From assembly GCF_000027125.1 (NCBI RefSeq), contig NC_017626.1: 64,000 nucleotides of DNA. One strand, 5' to 3'. The DNA is from Escherichia coli 042 (GTDB lineage: Bacteria > Pseudomonadota > Gammaproteobacteria > Enterobacterales > Enterobacteriaceae). The first letter of the stretch is position 1. Each line of letters opens with the position of its first letter. The translations under genes and the position numbers were made by a program. Of the stretch, positions 28,119-33,706 are shown piece by piece. Under the pieces are notes generated by a model. That model was not told the origin of the DNA and ran no database searches. It was given only the letters and a program-made list of their open reading frames with translations.

Positions 28119-28483
28119 AATCGACCCGCCATAATCCCTGTAAGCAAACGACGCGTGTTACAACTGCCGCCGAACGACGTTCAGCGGATTCTTCCATCCG
28201 GGATAAGAAGGAAACGGCAAATACGACCAGCGCGCAGAGCATTGAGCGCCAACGTGGAAGGCTTAGTGAAAACGGGTAGTAATGTTGTCATCATCAGCAT
28301 TCCTGGCCGTAAATGAAACACGCATACTCATAAGTGTGATCTATAAAACTGGCTGACAAAACGGTATCCATCCTGTTGGATAGCGTTTCACGCCTGTTCA
28401 GTTGCAGGAACAGAGCATTCCTTATTACGTTTTATCAACAGTCTCAACCAGATAGTAACATTAATATTCATGTTGTCTATGGT

Positions 28484-30106
28484 TCAGAGCTGTAACATTG
28501 TGCGCCTTCTAATCAAAGGCATAAGTCCATTTTTGTTTTTTTCATGCTGGTAAGACTTCCAGGGAGTGGTTATCTCAGGCCCTGCACCAGGGTTAATTTG
28601 GCAATTATGCATGCTGAACATTCTTCCAGCATGTTTACTGTCACGGGCGTTAAGACCTAAAACTGTCCCCGTTTCACCTATGCGTTCTCTCCCACCATTT
28701 CCGTTATGTGCAACAACTTGATTTATACCTAACATTTGTGAGCATGCTAATAGTGCTTCAAGTTTAGGCCTGTAATCTGTCGAAACAGAAAAATAACGAT
28801 TAAAGGATCGACAAGAGATAGCCCGGCTAGTTTTAAACTTTTTACCATTAATTATAGTATGATGCTTTTTATTAATAATTGCCGCTAATTCGACCGGATC
28901 GAGAGCATTGGTCATTTCATCAATAGAGACTGTTATCGGTCCTATAATGTAACGTTTTCGCTGATCATCAAAAGTTATCCCATGATGATTTGCCATTATT
29001 TTGTATTTGGGGTCATAGAAACATACAGGATAATCTTTTATCCCAGCGTAGGTATCCTCATCAAGTGGTTTCATACGCGTGAAGTTCTGCATATAGTTAC
29101 CATTGCAATTCGTTTCATGATTACCAGCTAATACATGAACATTTTTATTAATACTCATTATGCGTTTTAACAAATCGATGATAAATTGATCGCCACAGAT
29201 ATTACTAAATCGATCGCCGGTTTGGTCACCCAGAAACGTACATGGCGTCACTGCGCCCTGATTAATAACTAAATAAGGCTGAAGACTTTCTAAAACTATA
29301 TCTCTTCTGTTCAGAATACTGATTATTGTATTAACATTAGTGTCAAGTTGCTCATTAAAGTTCTCCCTTAGCAATACGTTGAGAACTTCATCTTCTATAT
29401 TAAGCAACTGGCTAAGGAAATTTTCTCCTTCAGCCATAATTCCCAAATGTCCCGTTGCGAAAAGCGCGTACAAAACTGCACCGACTGAGCCATCGGTATC
29501 ACCAAAATAGGTTGGTCTGGTACTTGTGGGATCAACGGGTGAACAATTGGAGAAATAGATTCTGTCAGCGAACTGGAGTTTTATCATTGTTTCGAATTTA
29601 ATATCAGATACATTATATTGCGATATTTTCCAGTCCCAGATGGGTTTGTACGACTCAGTAACTGCAACATCATTAGCATTATCATTTACTGTCATATTAT
29701 TAAGTAAATAAACAATGCTGCACCAATTTATATCGGTATCATCAAGAGGGCAACCGTAATTTTTACTATTAATTGTCACAATAAACTGATAACTATTATT
29801 CCTACGTAGAATATGGGCACGCATGCCCGATAGCATACTATATTTTTCTGAATGATTCGTATCTATGGTAAATGAAATTTTGTCATCTTGAAAAGATTGT
29901 TGGAAACGTTCTATTTGCCAATCATCAATTTTTTCCACAACTTCACCGAGCATTGTCCTGGCAATACTTGATATATCATCACCTATACCATTTGCAATAT
30001 ACCCAAACAGTTCTTTAGTGAAGTTAGTAACATGCTCTTGCACCATATCATTTGTTGCGATAGTCGTTATACTGTCGTTAGTACCTGCCACAGTTCCAAG
30101 TTTCAT
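28484..30106 (-). CDS. yhiJ: DUF4049-type protein YhiJ; core carries PPP/calcineurin-like metallophosphoesterase-like motifs (GDTDG ... GDQTGDRF ... GNHE ... HHG)
   Basis: 540 aa ORF in a visibly AT-rich block; paralogous to the adjacent yhiL ORF over the central core. Confidence 0.8.
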   Translation of the reverse strand: MKLGTVAGTNDSITTIATNDMVQEHVTNFTKELFGYIANGIGDDISSIARTMLGEVVEKIDDWQIERFQQSFQDDKISFTIDTNHSEKYSMLSGMRAHILRRNNSYQFIVTINSKNYGCPLDDTDINWCSIVYLLNNMTVNDNANDVAVTESYKPIWDWKISQYNVSDIKFETMIKLQFADRIYFSNCSPVDPTSTRPTYFGDTDGSVGAVLYALFATGHLGIMAEGENFLSQLLNIEDEVLNVLLRENFNEQLDTNVNTIISILNRRDIVLESLQPYLVINQGAVTPCTFLGDQTGDRFSNICGDQFIIDLLKRIMSINKNVHVLAGNHETNCNGNYMQNFTRMKPLDEDTYAGIKDYPVCFYDPKYKIMANHHGITFDDQRKRYIIGPITVSIDEMTNALDPVELAAIINKKHHTIINGKKFKTSRAISCRSFNRYFSVSTDYRPKLEALLACSQMLGINQVVAHNGNGGRERIGETGTVLGLNARDSKHAGRMFSMHNCQINPGAGPEITTPWKSYQHEKNKNGLMPLIRRRTMLQL

Positions 30107-30269
30107 CTTTTACCTCATATAATTCACCGCAAGGAATACATAGTTATCATTTAATCTTATGACATACACCTCATGTTCGACGGGAAAATAATTATATTTT
30201 GCACAAATCATTCAGCCTTAAAGCATAATATGAAATTTCTTATCTCATAGTAGAGAAAGTCCCTAAAGA

Positions 30270-30302
30270 TTGTAGAGGCGTCATCAGTACATGCCTCTAC
30301 AA
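30270..30302 (-). terminator. Perfect 10-bp-stem inverted repeat between yhiL and yhiJ (possible terminator or protein-binding site)
   Basis: ttgtagaggc-(13 nt)-gcctctacaa read directly; no clear U-tract. Confidence 0.3.
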
Positions 30303-30367
30303 TCGATTAAGAAAAACTATGAAATACTGGCAGGATTAAAAAGATATACCACCGTATTCATAGAGTT

Positions 30368-32041: not shown

Positions 32042-32339
32042 TAATACTTATATGTTCGATGATTTTAAGCACCGATACCATCCGGTCTTTTACCAAATAA
32101 TGAAAAAGAATCCCTCCCTGGAAGATAATTGTAAAAAACAACAGAATAAGAATTAATCTTAGGATAAATATTTATTTACCATGGCCTTTTGAACGCTGAA
32201 AAGTAGCGCTCTGCAAAGTAAATCCCGCTATAGTTATGCTATGCATTTGTCTTTAATGATATCTCGTCATTGTATTAACAGGCTGAAATTATCATTAATG
32301 CACATTTCAATATTAGCAGGGATACCTGAGGAGTTTAAA

Positions 32340-33392
32340 GTGAACATATATATCGGGTGGCTTTTCAAATTAATCCCTTTAATTATGGGCTTAATTTGTA
32401 TCGCGTTAGGTGGCTTTGTGCTGGAAAGTTCTGGGCAAAGTGAGTATTTCGTCGCGGGTCATGTGCTGATTTCTCTGGCAGCCATATGCCTGGCATTATT
32501 CACTACCGCATTTATTATCATTTCGCAGCTCACGCGCGGCGTTAATACGTTTTACAATACATTGTTCCCCATTATTGGCTATGCGGGGTCAATTATCACC
32601 ATGATATGGGGTTGGGCACTGTTAGCAGGCAATGATGTGATGGCAGACGAGTTTGTTGCCGGCCATGTTATTTTTGGCGTTGGTATGATTGCCGCCTGTG
32701 TATCGACAGTGGCAGCGTCATCCGGTCACTTTCTGCTCATTCCCAAAAACGCAGCAGGGAGCAAGAGCGATGGAACACCGGTACAGGCTTATTCTTCATT
32801 AATCGGTAATTGCCTCATTGCCGTTCCCGTTTTACTCACCCTGCTCGGTTTCATTTGGTCTATTACGCTGTTACGTAGTGCCGACATAACTCCGCATTAT
32901 GTCGCCGGTCACGTATTGCTTGGGTTAACCGCAATCTGTGCCTGTCTAATTGGCCTTGTTGCCACAATTGTCCATCAAACACGTAATACGTTCTCATCCA
33001 AAGAACACTGGCTGTGGTGTTATTGGGTTATTATTCTCGGCTCAATCACGGTGCTGCAGGGCATATACGTGTTAGTCAGCTCCGATGCAAGCGCCCGACT
33101 GGCTCCCGGCATTATCCTCATTTGCCTCGGAATGATCTGTTACAGCATATTCTCAAAAGTCTGGCTACTGGCACTGGTCTGGAGACGTACCTGTTCGTTA
33201 GCCAACAGAATACCGATGATTCCCGTCTTCACCTGCCTGTTTTGCCTTTTCCTGGCATCGTTTCTTGCAGAAATGGCGCAGACCGACATAGGGTATTTTA
33301 TTCCTTCGCGGGTTCTGGTCGGTTTGGGAGCGGTATGCTTTACGTTGTTCTCAATCGTTTCAATATTAGAAGCAGGTTCTGCTAAAAAATAA
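32340..33392 (+). CDS. yhiM: Inner membrane protein YhiM
   Basis: ORF 32241-33392; GTG at 32340 gives a 350 aa polytopic membrane protein (MNIYIGWLFKLIPLIMG...) with repeated FVAGHVL/YVAGHVL motifs. Confidence 0.8.
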   Translation: MNIYIGWLFKLIPLIMGLICIALGGFVLESSGQSEYFVAGHVLISLAAICLALFTTAFIIISQLTRGVNTFYNTLFPIIGYAGSIITMIWGWALLAGNDVMADEFVAGHVIFGVGMIAACVSTVAASSGHFLLIPKNAAGSKSDGTPVQAYSSLIGNCLIAVPVLLTLLGFIWSITLLRSADITPHYVAGHVLLGLTAICACLIGLVATIVHQTRNTFSSKEHWLWCYWVIILGSITVLQGIYVLVSSDASARLAPGIILICLGMICYSIFSKVWLLALVWRRTCSLANRIPMIPVFTCLFCLFLASFLAEMAQTDIGYFIPSRVLVGLGAVCFTLFSIVSILEAGSAKK

Positions 33393-33411
33393 TTGCAACG
33401 TACCGGATAAA

Positions 33412-33446
33412 ACCAGCGTTGACCATTTGCGTAACGCTGGTTTTTC
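33412..33446 (+). terminator. Rho-independent terminator downstream of yhiM
   Basis: accagcgtt-(12 nt loop)-aacgctggt followed by ttttt. Confidence 0.65.
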
Positions 33447-33706
33447 TCAGGTATCATGAAATAACGCAGAATTAATGCATAGTGGTTAAGTATAAAAAAA
33501 CAGCAAAGTTGCTGATTTTTTCAACCTGTTCATATTTTATAAAGATCTGGCCACTGGGGGAGTTTTAATCACCTTTCCTTCCACCTTATATTAAGCATGG
33601 AGGGTTTCAGTTCACAGGCTCATTAGAAAATAATCACAAGATAACCACTATCAAAATTAGCTCATTTTTAATGCGACTCTAATAATTTTCATCTTTAGGA
33701 AATAGC

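What the first reader, a model, noticed from the sequence alone, without database searches (positions are those of the whole stretch)
28300..33700. Compositional mosaic: strongly AT-rich blocks flank GC-typical core genes
By eye, the yhiJ-yhiL-yhiM block and the yhiS-slp-dctR block (51700-55000) are far more AT-rich than the neighbouring nik, rbbA, pitA, gor and ars genes. Long AT-rich non-coding leaders are present at 30107-30367, 32042-32339, 33393-33706 and 51700-52275. This is the signature of horizontally acquired, H-NS-silenced DNA and sets the two orphan-gene blocks apart as likely foreign cassettes.
Basis: seen in the sequence. Interest (0 to 1): 0.35.

Follow-up and report, generated by a model that had tools for sequence, protein, structure and literature searches.

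The report
AT-rich H-NS-silenced islands in E. coli
Two stretches of this E. coli chromosome are much richer in A and T than their surroundings because they are old, lineage-specific additions that the cell keeps switched off with the silencing protein H-NS; this is real but already well documented for the laboratory strain K-12.

Summary
Segmentation puts the window's two strongest GC change-points at 28250 and 32400 (35.4% GC vs 51.3% for the window). A second trough lies at 51591-55070 (36.8%). yhiJ, yhiL and yhiS are extreme (GC 34-37%, GC3 29-32%, z about -5 to -6). yhiM, slp and dctR are only moderately low.

H-NS ChIP-chip, SELEX, gel shifts and hns-mutant expression cover these same spacers, and they are listed as 'promoter islands' on predicted-foreign genes.

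- Block 1 is two modules. yhiJ-yhiL is Escherichia-restricted, sits at the same site in E. albertii, is absent from 19 outgroup Enterobacterales and is present in 79% of E. coli. yhiM is absent from E. albertii and has a second allele (dS 1.44) in the 21% of genomes that lack yhiJ-yhiL.
- There are no tRNA, integrase, flanking repeats, or plasmid or phage copies, so these are not mobile 'cassettes'.
- One 'leader' (33393-33706) is actually a convergent 3' spacer.
- The neighbours are not all core or GC-typical.
- YhiJ and YhiL carry a Wip-like PPP phosphatase domain, which I did not find reported.

Novelty: already known. Interest: low.

The parts
28251..32400 (.). AT-rich core of block 1 (35.4% GC): yhiJ, yhiL and their upstream regions
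   Evidence: Strongest GC change-points of the window. The orthologous K-12 region is H-NS-bound.
28337..33720 (.). Segment that varies between E. coli haplotypes. It is replaced by 1.65 kb (a divergent yhiM only) in 21% of genomes.
   Evidence: Collinearity with Ecol_732 ends at about 28336-28348 and resumes at 33721.
28181..28294 (-). yhiY, a 37-aa small protein just outside the variable segment. Its upstream region abuts the left junction.
   Evidence: RefSeq annotation; Pfam YhiY, E=1.5e-28.
28484..30106 (-). yhiJ, 540 aa: DUF4049 with a Wip-like PPP phosphatase domain (residues ~185-505). GC 37.3%.
   Evidence: Pfam E=6e-177 with a weak Metallophos hit. Profile vs PDB: WipB, E=1.6e-8. AF2 pLDDT 86.9 and Foldseek hits to WipB/WipA, E 2e-5 to 9e-4.
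30107..30367 (-). yhiL-yhiJ spacer (32.6% GC), the 5' region of yhiJ
   Evidence: Composition. K-12 has a constitutive promoter with an H-NS mark here.
30368..31957 (-). yhiL, 529 aa, intact here (frameshifted in K-12): DUF6860 + DUF4049, a paralogue of yhiJ. GC 34.3%.
   Evidence: Pfam. 34% identity to YhiJ, E=1e-70. 89.2% nt identity to K-12. The ORF could extend to a TTG at 32041.
31958..32339 (.). Divergent yhiL/yhiM promoter region, the K-12 'promoter island'
   Evidence: PMC3661553 Table 1. H-NS binds the yhiM promoter directly. Promoter-like sites cluster here.
32340..33392 (+). yhiM, 350 aa, a DUF2776 inner-membrane protein linked to acid resistance and GABA export. GC 47.0%. A separate module.
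   Evidence: Pfam E=5e-158; PMC6604978. Absent from E. albertii. The second allele has dS 1.44 and omega .045.
33393..33706 (.). Spacer between the convergent 3' ends of yhiM and yhiN (35.4% GC). It contains the yhiM terminator hairpin at about 33410-33445 and is not a leader.
   Evidence: Gene orientations and sequence. The spacer is 86 bp in the other haplotype, and it holds a pco cluster in strain ZY22049.
51591..55070 (.). AT-rich block 2 (36.8% GC): yhiS plus slp-dctR, the left arm of the acid fitness island
   Evidence: Segmentation, annotation, and H-NS and StpA literature.
51696..52275 (+). AT-rich region upstream of yhiS (33.6% GC), the K-12 arsC/yhiS 'promoter island'
   Evidence: K-12 homology starts at 51967.
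52276..53499 (+). yhiS, an intact 407-aa ORF with no Pfam domain, restricted to E. coli and Shigella and highly polymorphic. GC 33.9%.
53744..54310 (+). slp, outer-membrane lipoprotein
   Evidence: Pfam Slp, E=9e-42. H-NS-repressed.
54463..54993 (+). dctR (yhiF), LuxR-type regulator
   Evidence: Pfam GerE. The transcript rises 34.7-fold in an hns mutant.

Best explanation
The two AT-rich blocks are old additions to the Escherichia chromosome that H-NS keeps transcriptionally quiet because of their base composition.

Block 1 has two independent modules. The first is yhiJ-yhiL, a pair of fast-evolving paralogues found only in Escherichia, each carrying a Wip-like PPP phosphatase domain. It was present at the yhiI|yhiN junction before E. 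coli and E. albertii split, and the UTI89/Nissle-type E. coli haplotype lacks it. The second is yhiM, a widely but patchily distributed membrane protein. It was added in E. coli, and that same haplotype carries a xenologous allele. Block 2 is yhiS plus slp-dctR, the left arm of the acid fitness island, here separated from the rest of that island by the chu heme-uptake island.

Mechanism. High A/T-tract and TpA density gives H-NS (and StpA) an extended binding and oligomerisation platform, which also contains many promoter-like sequences. H-NS filaments suppress transcription. For yhiM and slp-dctR, acid-stress activators (GadE/RcsB, GadX/W, EvgA-YdeO, RpoS) overcome this.

Shown here: the composition, the boundaries, the phylogenetic and population distribution, and the selection regimes. 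Taken from K-12 literature: H-NS binding and derepression. Inferred: that the same holds in this strain, where the promoter regions are 94-99% identical to K-12.
For: - Composition and boundaries.
- The outgroups conserve uspA-uspB-pitA-yhiN, but none of the 19 has yhiM, yhiL or yhiJ within 10 kb. Citrobacter werkmanii carries a different, GC-normal 9-kb operon at the junction.
- E. albertii has yhiL-yhiJ at the same site with GC .34/.36 and no yhiM. Flanking proteins are 96-100% identical, but YhiJ is 57% and YhiL 52%.
- dN/dS is .27 and .45 for yhiJ and yhiL, against .03-.05 in the flanks. Within E. coli, yhiJ dS (.088) equals the flanks, which indicates vertical inheritance.
- Haplotypes: yhiJ-yhiL in 4287 of 5426 genomes and the yhiM-only haplotype in 1141, all chromosomal and single-copy. 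The yhiM alleles differ by dS 1.44 with omega .045, against flank dS of .05-.18.
- Family breadth: exhaustive HMMER over 1.84e9 representatives finds DUF4049 essentially only in Escherichia. YhiS is found only in E. coli and Shigella. The nearest non-Escherichia YhiM is at most 61% identical, and the named ones are from Alpha/Betaproteobacteria and Actinobacteria.
- H-NS.
- 23 of 29 promoter-like sites in 23-40 kb fall within 28.45-33.65 kb (P=9e-8).
- A/T tracts run 6-7 per kb vs 2.5-4, and TpA steps 85-94 vs 32-46 per kb.
Against: - No H-NS data exist for this strain. For yhiJ and yhiL I found binding data (ChIP, SELEX) but no derepression measurement in the papers I read.
- No donor lineage is identified for yhiJ, yhiL or yhiS, so 'foreign' is inferred from absence in relatives and from composition. 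De novo or highly diverged native origin is not excluded.
- The outgroup set lacked Salmonella, E. fergusonii and the cryptic Escherichia clades, so the time of gain is bracketed only coarsely.
- H-NS consensus-site density is no higher than composition-matched shuffles (9 vs 10.0±3.4; 8 vs 8.1±2.9), so there is no evidence of dedicated nucleation sites.
Confidence: 0.85

Rival explanations
1. The AT-richness does not mark foreign origin. The genes are native or born de novo, weakly constrained and poorly expressed, and have drifted to the AT-biased mutational equilibrium. H-NS binding is then a consequence of this drift.
For: - yhiJ, yhiL and yhiS have no detectable homologues outside Escherichia/Shigella.
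- Constraint is relaxed (omega .27-.45). yhiL is a pseudogene in K-12.
- Composition is unchanged between E. coli and E. albertii.
- Polymorphism in the flanking core genes implies an AT-biased equilibrium, GC* of about .35, which is close to the blocks' actual GC.
Against: - The DUF4049 domain is a well-folded Wip-like phosphatase with invariant catalytic motifs and distant metagenomic relatives, so it was not born de novo from E. coli non-coding DNA.
- Polarised changes inside yhiJ and yhiL run AT->GC 111 vs GC->AT 61, the opposite of ongoing decay, although outgroup saturation weakens this.
- The block is absent at a conserved junction in 19 outgroups.
- yhiM shows clear xenology.
Confidence: 0.1
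2. The blocks are classical mobile genomic islands or cassettes, delivered recently by an integrase, phage or plasmid.
For: - Atypical composition.
- Presence/absence polymorphism among strains.
- Neighbouring junctions swap cargo: rhsB, hicAB or the PTS island at nikR|yhhJ, and pco at yhiM|yhiN.
Against: - There is no tRNA in 64 kb.
- No integrase, transposase or recombinase lies in or next to either block in this strain.
- There are no boundary direct repeats.
- There are no true plasmid or phage copies of YhiJ. The three 'plasmid' hits are 4.8-4.9 Mb chromosomes.
- The block occupies the same site in E. albertii with 43-48% protein divergence, so the gain is old.
- Within E. coli, yhiJ dS equals that of its flanks.
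Confidence: 0.04
3. The extreme divergence of yhiJ, yhiL, yhiS and yhiM alleles reflects repeated allelic replacement by homologous recombination from unsampled Escherichia lineages, with diversifying selection on conflict-type genes. On this view the blocks are recombination and diversity hot spots more than silent cargo.
For: - yhiM allele 2 differs by dS 1.44 while its flanks differ by .05-.18.
- YhiS alleles span 100-62% identity within E. coli.
- yhiL is 89% identical between strains against 96-98% for its neighbours.
- 2659 of 4287 carriers are only 90-95% identical to this strain over yhiJ-yhiL.
- yhiJ and yhiL dS against E. albertii (1.1 and .78) exceeds the flanks (.15-.60).
Against: - Overall omega is below 1 (.19-.45), and no site-level test was run.
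- Higher dS may reflect weak codon bias and saturation in AT-rich genes.
- This reading is compatible with the main explanation rather than exclusive of it.
Confidence: 0.3

Closest known systems
H-NS xenogeneic silencing of AT-rich horizontally acquired DNA (Navarre, Lucchini, Oshima 2006; 'promoter islands' of Panyukov & Ozoline 2013)
   Same: AT content is about 15 points below the host. A/T-tract, TpA and promoter-like site density are all high. The orthologous K-12 spacers are explicitly listed as H-NS-bound promoter islands on predicted-foreign genes.
   Different: Nothing material. In this strain the H-NS consensus density is explained by composition alone. The blocks are old and stable rather than recent.
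E. coli acid fitness island (slp to gadA) and its regulon member yhiM
   Same: slp-dctR form the left end of the island. yhiM is co-regulated (H-NS-repressed; RpoS-, GadE-, GadX- and EvgA-activated) and lies about 20 kb away.
   Different: In this strain the chu heme-uptake island is inserted directly after dctR, so the rest of the island lies beyond the window. yhiS is usually not counted as a member. yhiJ and yhiL have no known acid-resistance role.
Legionella Dot/Icm effector phosphatases WipA, WipB and WipC (PPP-fold)
   Same: The YhiJ/YhiL DUF4049 domain matches WipB by sequence profile (E=1.6e-8), and only WipB and WipA by fold. It shares the Wip-type GDx3DR spacing and the (G/S)NH motif.
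   Different: The first motif is DxD, not DxH, in all members. TM-scores are only 0.41-0.48. The N-terminal domains differ (DUF6860 or unassigned). E. coli has no Dot/Icm system. No activity or secretion data exist.
Classical tRNA-linked pathogenicity or genomic islands
   Same: Atypical composition and variable presence among strains.
   Different: There is no tRNA, integrase, direct repeat or mobility gene.

Membership tests
H-NS-silenced xenogeneic DNA | AT content clearly above the host average over hundreds of bases or more | tested here: met
   35.4% and 36.8% GC vs 51.3% for the window; z of -17 to -20.
H-NS-silenced xenogeneic DNA | H-NS occupancy in vivo (ChIP) | not testable with these tools
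   Reported for the orthologous K-12 regions in three ChIP-chip studies as compiled in PMC3661553 Table 1, by SELEX in PMC3946193, and across the AFI in the 2026 preprint. No data exist for this strain.
H-NS-silenced xenogeneic DNA | Derepression when hns is deleted | not testable with these tools
   K-12: slp-dctR up 34.7-fold and yhiM up 10.8-fold, with direct H-NS binding by gel shift (PMC2984483). For yhiJ, yhiL and yhiS I found no expression measurement.
H-NS-silenced xenogeneic DNA | Absent from related species (lineage-specific acquisition) | tested here: met
   None of the 19 outgroup Enterobacterales has yhiM, yhiL or yhiJ next to yhiN. The protein families are Escherichia-restricted (yhiJ, yhiL, yhiS) or patchily distributed (yhiM). 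Salmonella and E. fergusonii were not sampled.
Mobile genomic island / cassette | Integrase, transposase or other mobility gene within or adjacent | tested here: not met
   None annotated in 23-37 kb or 50-56 kb. K-12 has an IS5 in yhiS, but that is secondary.
Mobile genomic island / cassette | Insertion at a tRNA/tmRNA gene with flanking direct repeats | tested here: not met
   0 tRNA genes in the window. No boundary repeats.
Mobile genomic island / cassette | Copies on plasmids or phages, or at other chromosomal sites | tested here: not met
   No phage hits. The 3 'plasmid' hits are mislabelled chromosomes. There is one place per genome, always chromosomal.
Acid fitness island (AFI) | slp-dctR at the left end, followed by yhiD-hdeBAD-gadE-mdtEF-gadWXA | tested here: inconclusive
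   slp and dctR are present and 97.6-99.1% identical to K-12. In K-12 yhiD-hdeB-hdeA follow directly. Here chuS follows instead, and the window ends inside the chu island.
PPP / Wip-type metallophosphatase (YhiJ, YhiL) | Signature motifs DxH, GDxxDR, (G/S)NH(E/D/G) | tested here: inconclusive
   GDTDG (DxD: the His is replaced by Asp in all 17 aligned members), GDQTGDR (the same x3 spacing as WipB GDELVDR) and GNHE, all invariant. Two motifs are met and one is altered.
PPP / Wip-type metallophosphatase (YhiJ, YhiL) | Significant sequence and fold similarity to solved members | tested here: met
   Profile vs PDB: WipB 5NNY at E=1.6e-8, PP5 at 0.02. Foldseek: only WipB and WipA are significant, with probability 1.00 but TM 0.41-0.48. 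Bridging relatives exceed the Pfam Metallophos cut-off.
PPP / Wip-type metallophosphatase (YhiJ, YhiL) | Metal-dependent phosphatase activity | not testable with these tools
   No biochemical data found. The only functional claim is myo-inositol oxygenase, based on a weak knockout phenotype (PMC3423039), and it does not fit this fold.

The most novel reading that the evidence does not exclude
yhiJ and yhiL encode a cryptic, H-NS-silenced pair of Wip-type (eukaryotic-like PPP-fold) protein phosphatases that are unique to Escherichia. Their rapid evolution (dN 15-40 times that of the flanks, with deep allelic diversity) reflects a conflict or host-interaction role, as effector-like or toxin-like proteins, in a species where no such phosphatase has been described. 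The two-haplotype polymorphism (79% vs 21%, the latter in UTI89/Nissle-type strains) would then mark a functional difference between E. coli lineages.
Probability: 0.2. Interest if true: 0.55.

Novelty: already known. Interest (0 to 1): 0.22.

Why it matters
As stated, the finding restates textbook biology: AT-rich, lineage-specific DNA in E. coli is bound and silenced by H-NS, and these particular loci are already in the published K-12 lists. Its practical value is as a positive control, showing that by-eye compositional calls from raw sequence can recover real H-NS islands with roughly correct boundaries.

The by-products are of modest interest:
- A clean, ancient two-haplotype polymorphism at yhiI|yhiN, with a xenologous yhiM allele.
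- Evidence that AT-richness can persist unameliorated since before the E. coli/E. albertii split, so it is not a marker of recent transfer.
- A fold-level assignment (Wip-like PPP phosphatase) for the uncharacterised YhiJ/YhiL family, which contradicts the only published functional proposal.

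Tried and rejected
- **H-NS consensus (TCGATAAATT, up to 2 mismatches).** Density is 2-4 times higher in the blocks but equals composition-matched shuffles, so there is no evidence of dedicated high-affinity sites.
- **PADLOC defence models.** No match for YhiJ, YhiL, YhiM or YhiS, so I dropped the defence-system idea.
- **Rfam.** Nothing in either block.
- **Full-length YhiJ AF2 model.** From a 12-sequence alignment it was poor (pLDDT 50) and I did not use it. The full-length profile found nothing in the PDB. Only the domain-trimmed, deeper alignment worked.
- **Plasmid and phage tblastn for YhiJ.** No true hits.
- **Boundary repeats.** Only the yhiJ/yhiL paralogy and short, probably chance matches. 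A 15-nt repeat spaced exactly one yhiM CDS length apart, and a 16-nt inverted repeat whose right arm sits at the E. albertii breakpoint, were noted but not pursued.
- **Polarised substitution spectrum as a test of amelioration.** AT->GC exceeds GC->AT in the block, but the outgroup is near saturation, so I treat the result as inconclusive.
- **The idea that the whole block is a divergence hot spot against K-12.** Only yhiL (89%), and to a lesser degree yhiS (94%), stand out. yhiJ and yhiM are as similar as their flanks.
- **First per-gene table.** It was wrong for genes left of 16.9 kb because of a 1-bp offset from the ECA64 annotation. Corrected.
- **The genome-contig scan anchored on YhiN.** It returned no Escherichia or Salmonella loci, so the timing of gain rests on E. 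albertii alone.

Full report
**What the window is.** The window is an E. coli chromosome segment. It is 100% identical to strain ECA64 over 28000-34000 and 99.49% identical over the full 64 kb. RefSeq annotation of ECA64 gives this order:
- a 12-gene lipid/polyene-type cluster (1-11285), then acpT and nikABCDER;
- a GntR/PTS/FGGY/aldolase island (17505-23104);
- yhhJ-rbbA-yhiI and yhiY;
- yhiJ (28484-30106, -), yhiL (30368-31957, -) and yhiM (32340-33392, +);
- yhiN, pitA, uspBA, dtpB, rsmJ, prlC, rlmJ, gor and dinQ;
- arsRDABC, then an ArsR/SmtB regulator and an ArsP permease;
- yhiS (52276-53499), slp and dctR;
- the chu heme-uptake island.

**Observation.** It is real and far beyond chance. 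An unsupervised recursive GC segmentation puts the two strongest change-points of the whole window at 28250 and 32400 (likelihood ratios 333 and 307), enclosing 4.15 kb at 35.4% GC. A second trough lies at 51591-55070 (36.8%).

Per gene (after correcting a 1-bp coordinate offset that spoiled):
- yhiJ, yhiL and yhiS have GC .373, .343 and .339, and GC3 .318, .289 and .316.
- The 19 core genes average GC .554 (sd .036) and GC3 .638 (sd .057), so z is about -5 to -6.
- Codon usage is correspondingly aberrant. Karlin B is .63-.66 vs .29.
- The proteins are enriched in AT-codon amino acids (FYMINK .34-.39 vs .23).
- At block level the dinucleotide signature distance to core genes is 94-114, against 28-39 for core blocks. 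The two AT blocks resemble each other (36).

The four spacers are AT-rich as stated.

Three qualifications apply. First, yhiM (GC .470, GC3 .499), slp (.462) and dctR (.401) are only moderately low, and the segmentation assigns yhiM to the normal segment. Second, there is a third trough at 17341-19300 (.437).

**Interpretation: H-NS.** This part is already in the literature for the orthologous K-12 DNA.
- Panyukov & Ozoline (PMC3661553, Table 1) list 'promoter islands' inside yhiL, at yhiL/yhiM, at arsC/yhiS and at insH/slp. Each is flagged as overlapping predicted-foreign genes and as H-NS-bound in the Grainger, Oshima and/or Kahramanoglou ChIP-chip data.
- Shimada et al. (PMC3946193) mark H-NS at the yhiJ/yhiL, yhiL/yhiM, yhiN/pitA and insH/slp spacers.
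- Krin et al. (PMC2984483) measured 34.7-fold (slp-dctR) and 10.8-fold (yhiM) derepression in an hns mutant, and showed preferential H-NS binding to both promoter fragments.
- Tramonti et al. (PMC6604978) summarise yhiM as H-NS-repressed and RpoS-, GadE-, GadX- and EvgAS-activated.
- A 2026 preprint notes widespread H-NS binding across the acid fitness island, and high-affinity StpA sites at slp-dctR and yhiS.

In this strain the sequence properties behind that behaviour are present. 23 of the 29 sigma70-like sites in 23-40 kb fall within 28.45-33.65 kb (P=9e-8). A/T tracts and TpA steps are 2-3 times denser. Matches to the H-NS consensus are no more frequent than in composition-matched shuffles. 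Predicted H-NS affinity is therefore a property of the composition, not of special sites.

**Interpretation: foreign origin.** This is supported, with important refinements.

1. Anchoring on the conserved neighbour YhiN, 19 outgroup Enterobacterales (Citrobacter, Enterobacter, Kluyvera, Klebsiella, Yersinia, Serratia and others) all keep uspA-uspB-pitA-yhiN, but none has yhiM, yhiL or yhiJ within 10 kb. C. werkmanii carries a different, GC-normal 9-kb operon between yhiN and yhiI.
2. E. albertii has yhiL-yhiJ at exactly the same site but no yhiM. Its flanking proteins are 96-100% identical to the window's, whereas YhiJ and YhiL are 57% and 52% identical. Its copies are just as AT-rich (GC .36 and .34; block .350 vs .536 for the rest of the locus). 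The yhiJ-yhiL module is therefore old, has not ameliorated, and evolves fast. dN is 15-40 times that of the flanks, and omega is .27 and .45 against .03-.05.
3. Within E. coli there are two clean haplotypes. yhiJ-yhiL is present in 4287 of 5426 complete genomes. A 1.65-kb replacement carrying only yhiM is found in 1141 genomes, including UTI89, Nissle and Ecol_732, of which 1120 are at least 99% identical. I recognise these as B2-type strains, but that comes from my own knowledge and was not tested.
4. The haplotypes are collinear up to about 28336-28348 and again from 33721, inside the last codons of yhiN. YhiN is 400 aa in one haplotype and 397 aa in the other.
5. The two yhiM alleles are 90% identical in protein but 79.8% in DNA (dS 1.44, omega .045), while their flanks differ by dS .05-.18. 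That is a functional xenologous allele imported from outside the species.
6. Beyond E. coli, the nearest YhiM relatives are at most 61% identical, and the named ones are from Alpha/Betaproteobacteria and Actinobacteria.
7. YhiJ/YhiL (DUF4049) is essentially confined to Escherichia, even in an exhaustive HMMER scan of 1.84 billion representatives. That scan gave 79 hits, mostly fragments, one 720-aa metagenomic relative, and about a dozen weak bridging hits.
8. YhiS has no Pfam domain, occurs only in E. coli and Shigella, keeps a 407-aa length, and spans 100-62% identity.

**What the blocks are not.** They are not mobile cassettes. The window has no tRNA. No integrase or transposase lies in or beside either block in this strain. 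The boundaries have no direct repeats. There are no genuine plasmid or phage copies. Each genome has one chromosomal copy.

The spacer 33393-33706 is not a leader. It lies between the convergent 3' ends of yhiM and yhiN and begins with the yhiM terminator hairpin. Block 2 is the left arm of the well-known acid fitness island plus yhiS. In this strain chuS follows dctR directly, where K-12 has yhiD-hdeBA.

**What yhiJ and yhiL encode.** The paralogues (34% identity, E=1e-70) share invariant GDTDG, GDxTGDR, GNH(E/D), HHG and a C-terminal His. Weak Pfam Metallophos and NCBIfam Wip hits led to a domain-trimmed alignment with the distant relatives (A2).
- The A2 profile hits the Legionella effector phosphatase WipB (5NNY) at E=1.6e-8, followed by PP5 at 0.02.
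- The AF2 model built from A2 is confident (pLDDT 86.9, pTM .88). Its only significant Foldseek matches are WipB and WipA (E from 2e-5 to 9e-4, probability 1.00, TM .41-.48).
- The Wip papers define the family by DxH, GDxxDR and (G/S)NH(E/G). YhiJ/YhiL share WipB's three-residue GDx3DR spacing and the NH motif, but have DxD in place of DxH in every member.

I found no publication making this link. The only functional proposal, myo-inositol oxygenase from a weak knockout phenotype (PMC3423039), does not fit this fold. Activity, substrate and localisation remain unknown.

**Rivals.** The native-drift rival holds that the AT-richness is a mutational equilibrium in weakly constrained native genes. 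It fits the relaxed constraint and the unchanged composition in E. albertii. It is disfavoured by the well-folded enzyme domain, the absence at a conserved junction in the outgroups, and a polarised substitution spectrum that runs AT->GC 111 vs GC->AT 61 in the block. The flanks run the other way, 70 vs 167, although outgroup saturation makes this inconclusive. The mobile-island rival fails each of its defining tests. A recombination and diversifying-selection reading of the allelic diversity is compatible with the main explanation, and I did not test it at site level.

**Verdict.** The phenomenon is already known for K-12, so interest is low. The most novel reading not excluded is that yhiJ-yhiL are cryptic Wip-type phosphatases under conflict-like evolution.

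Noticed in passing
window 17307-23194 (nikR|yhhJ junction): This junction swaps cargo between strains. Here it holds a GntR/PTS/FGGY/HPr/aldolase island. K-12-type BM28 has rhsB-yhhH-ISEc1. E. albertii and E. coli ZY22049 and ERL06-2503 have hicAB.
   Followed up: partly
window 33393-33706; L088 10495-14902: In strain ZY22049 a pco copper-resistance cluster follows yhiM where yhiN is expected. Strain AZ 186 has an IS1 in the equivalent region. This AT-rich spacer is therefore an insertion site in some strains.
   Followed up: no
window 1-11285: A 12-gene cluster is absent from the K-12 locus and GC-rich (0.57). It encodes a COG4648 protein, an AMP-ligase, a FabZ-like dehydratase, a GT2, a thioesterase, a LolA-like protein, an MMPL transporter, DUF3261, two ketosynthases, a hotdog protein and FabG2. 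It looks like an aryl-polyene or lipid biosynthesis island.
   Followed up: no
window 45854-51695: The ars locus here is arsRDABC plus an ArsR/SmtB regulator and an ArsP-type permease. K-12 has only arsRBC. arsR is just 83.6% identical to K-12's, which suggests a replaced operon head.
   Followed up: no
window 55054-64000; 58111-58142; 45388-45703: The chu heme-uptake island is inserted directly after dctR, splitting the acid fitness island. Rfam finds the shuA/chuA 5' UTR thermometer and two AgrB antisense RNAs next to dinQ.
   Followed up: no
window 52276-53499: RefSeq labels yhiS 'frameshifted' in ECA64 (52276-53392). The window nevertheless has an intact 407-aa ORF, the same length as thousands of E. 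coli YhiS proteins, so the pseudogene call looks like an annotation artefact.
   Followed up: partly
window 28484-30106 (yhiJ): The published proposal that yhiJ encodes a myo-inositol:oxygen oxidoreductase (PMC3423039) conflicts with its Wip-like PPP phosphatase fold and motifs.
   Followed up: partly
window 28484-53499 (yhiJ to yhiS): An IS5-mediated 20.8-kb deletion from yhiJ to yhiS arose in K-12 under ciprofloxacin selection (PMC11633386). The two AT-rich blocks therefore bracket a dispensable interval that includes pitA, uspAB, prlC, gor and ars.
   Followed up: no
window 33707-33721 (3' end of yhiN): The right junction of the variable segment lies within the last codons of yhiN. YhiN is 400 aa in the yhiJ-yhiL-yhiM haplotype, but 397 aa in the yhiM-only haplotype and in E. 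albertii.
   Followed up: partly
window 32305-32319 and 33358-33372; 28556-28571 and 32109-32124: A 15-nt direct repeat is spaced exactly one yhiM CDS length (1053 bp) apart. A 16-nt inverted repeat has its right arm at the point where E. albertii homology ends. Both are probably chance matches in AT-rich DNA.
   Followed up: no
window ~16901-16904 (nikE/nikR junction) and the whole window: The window differs from ECA64 by a 1-bp indel between nikE and nikR, and by 319 mismatches over 64 kb. It therefore comes from a close relative, not from ECA64 itself.
   Followed up: yes
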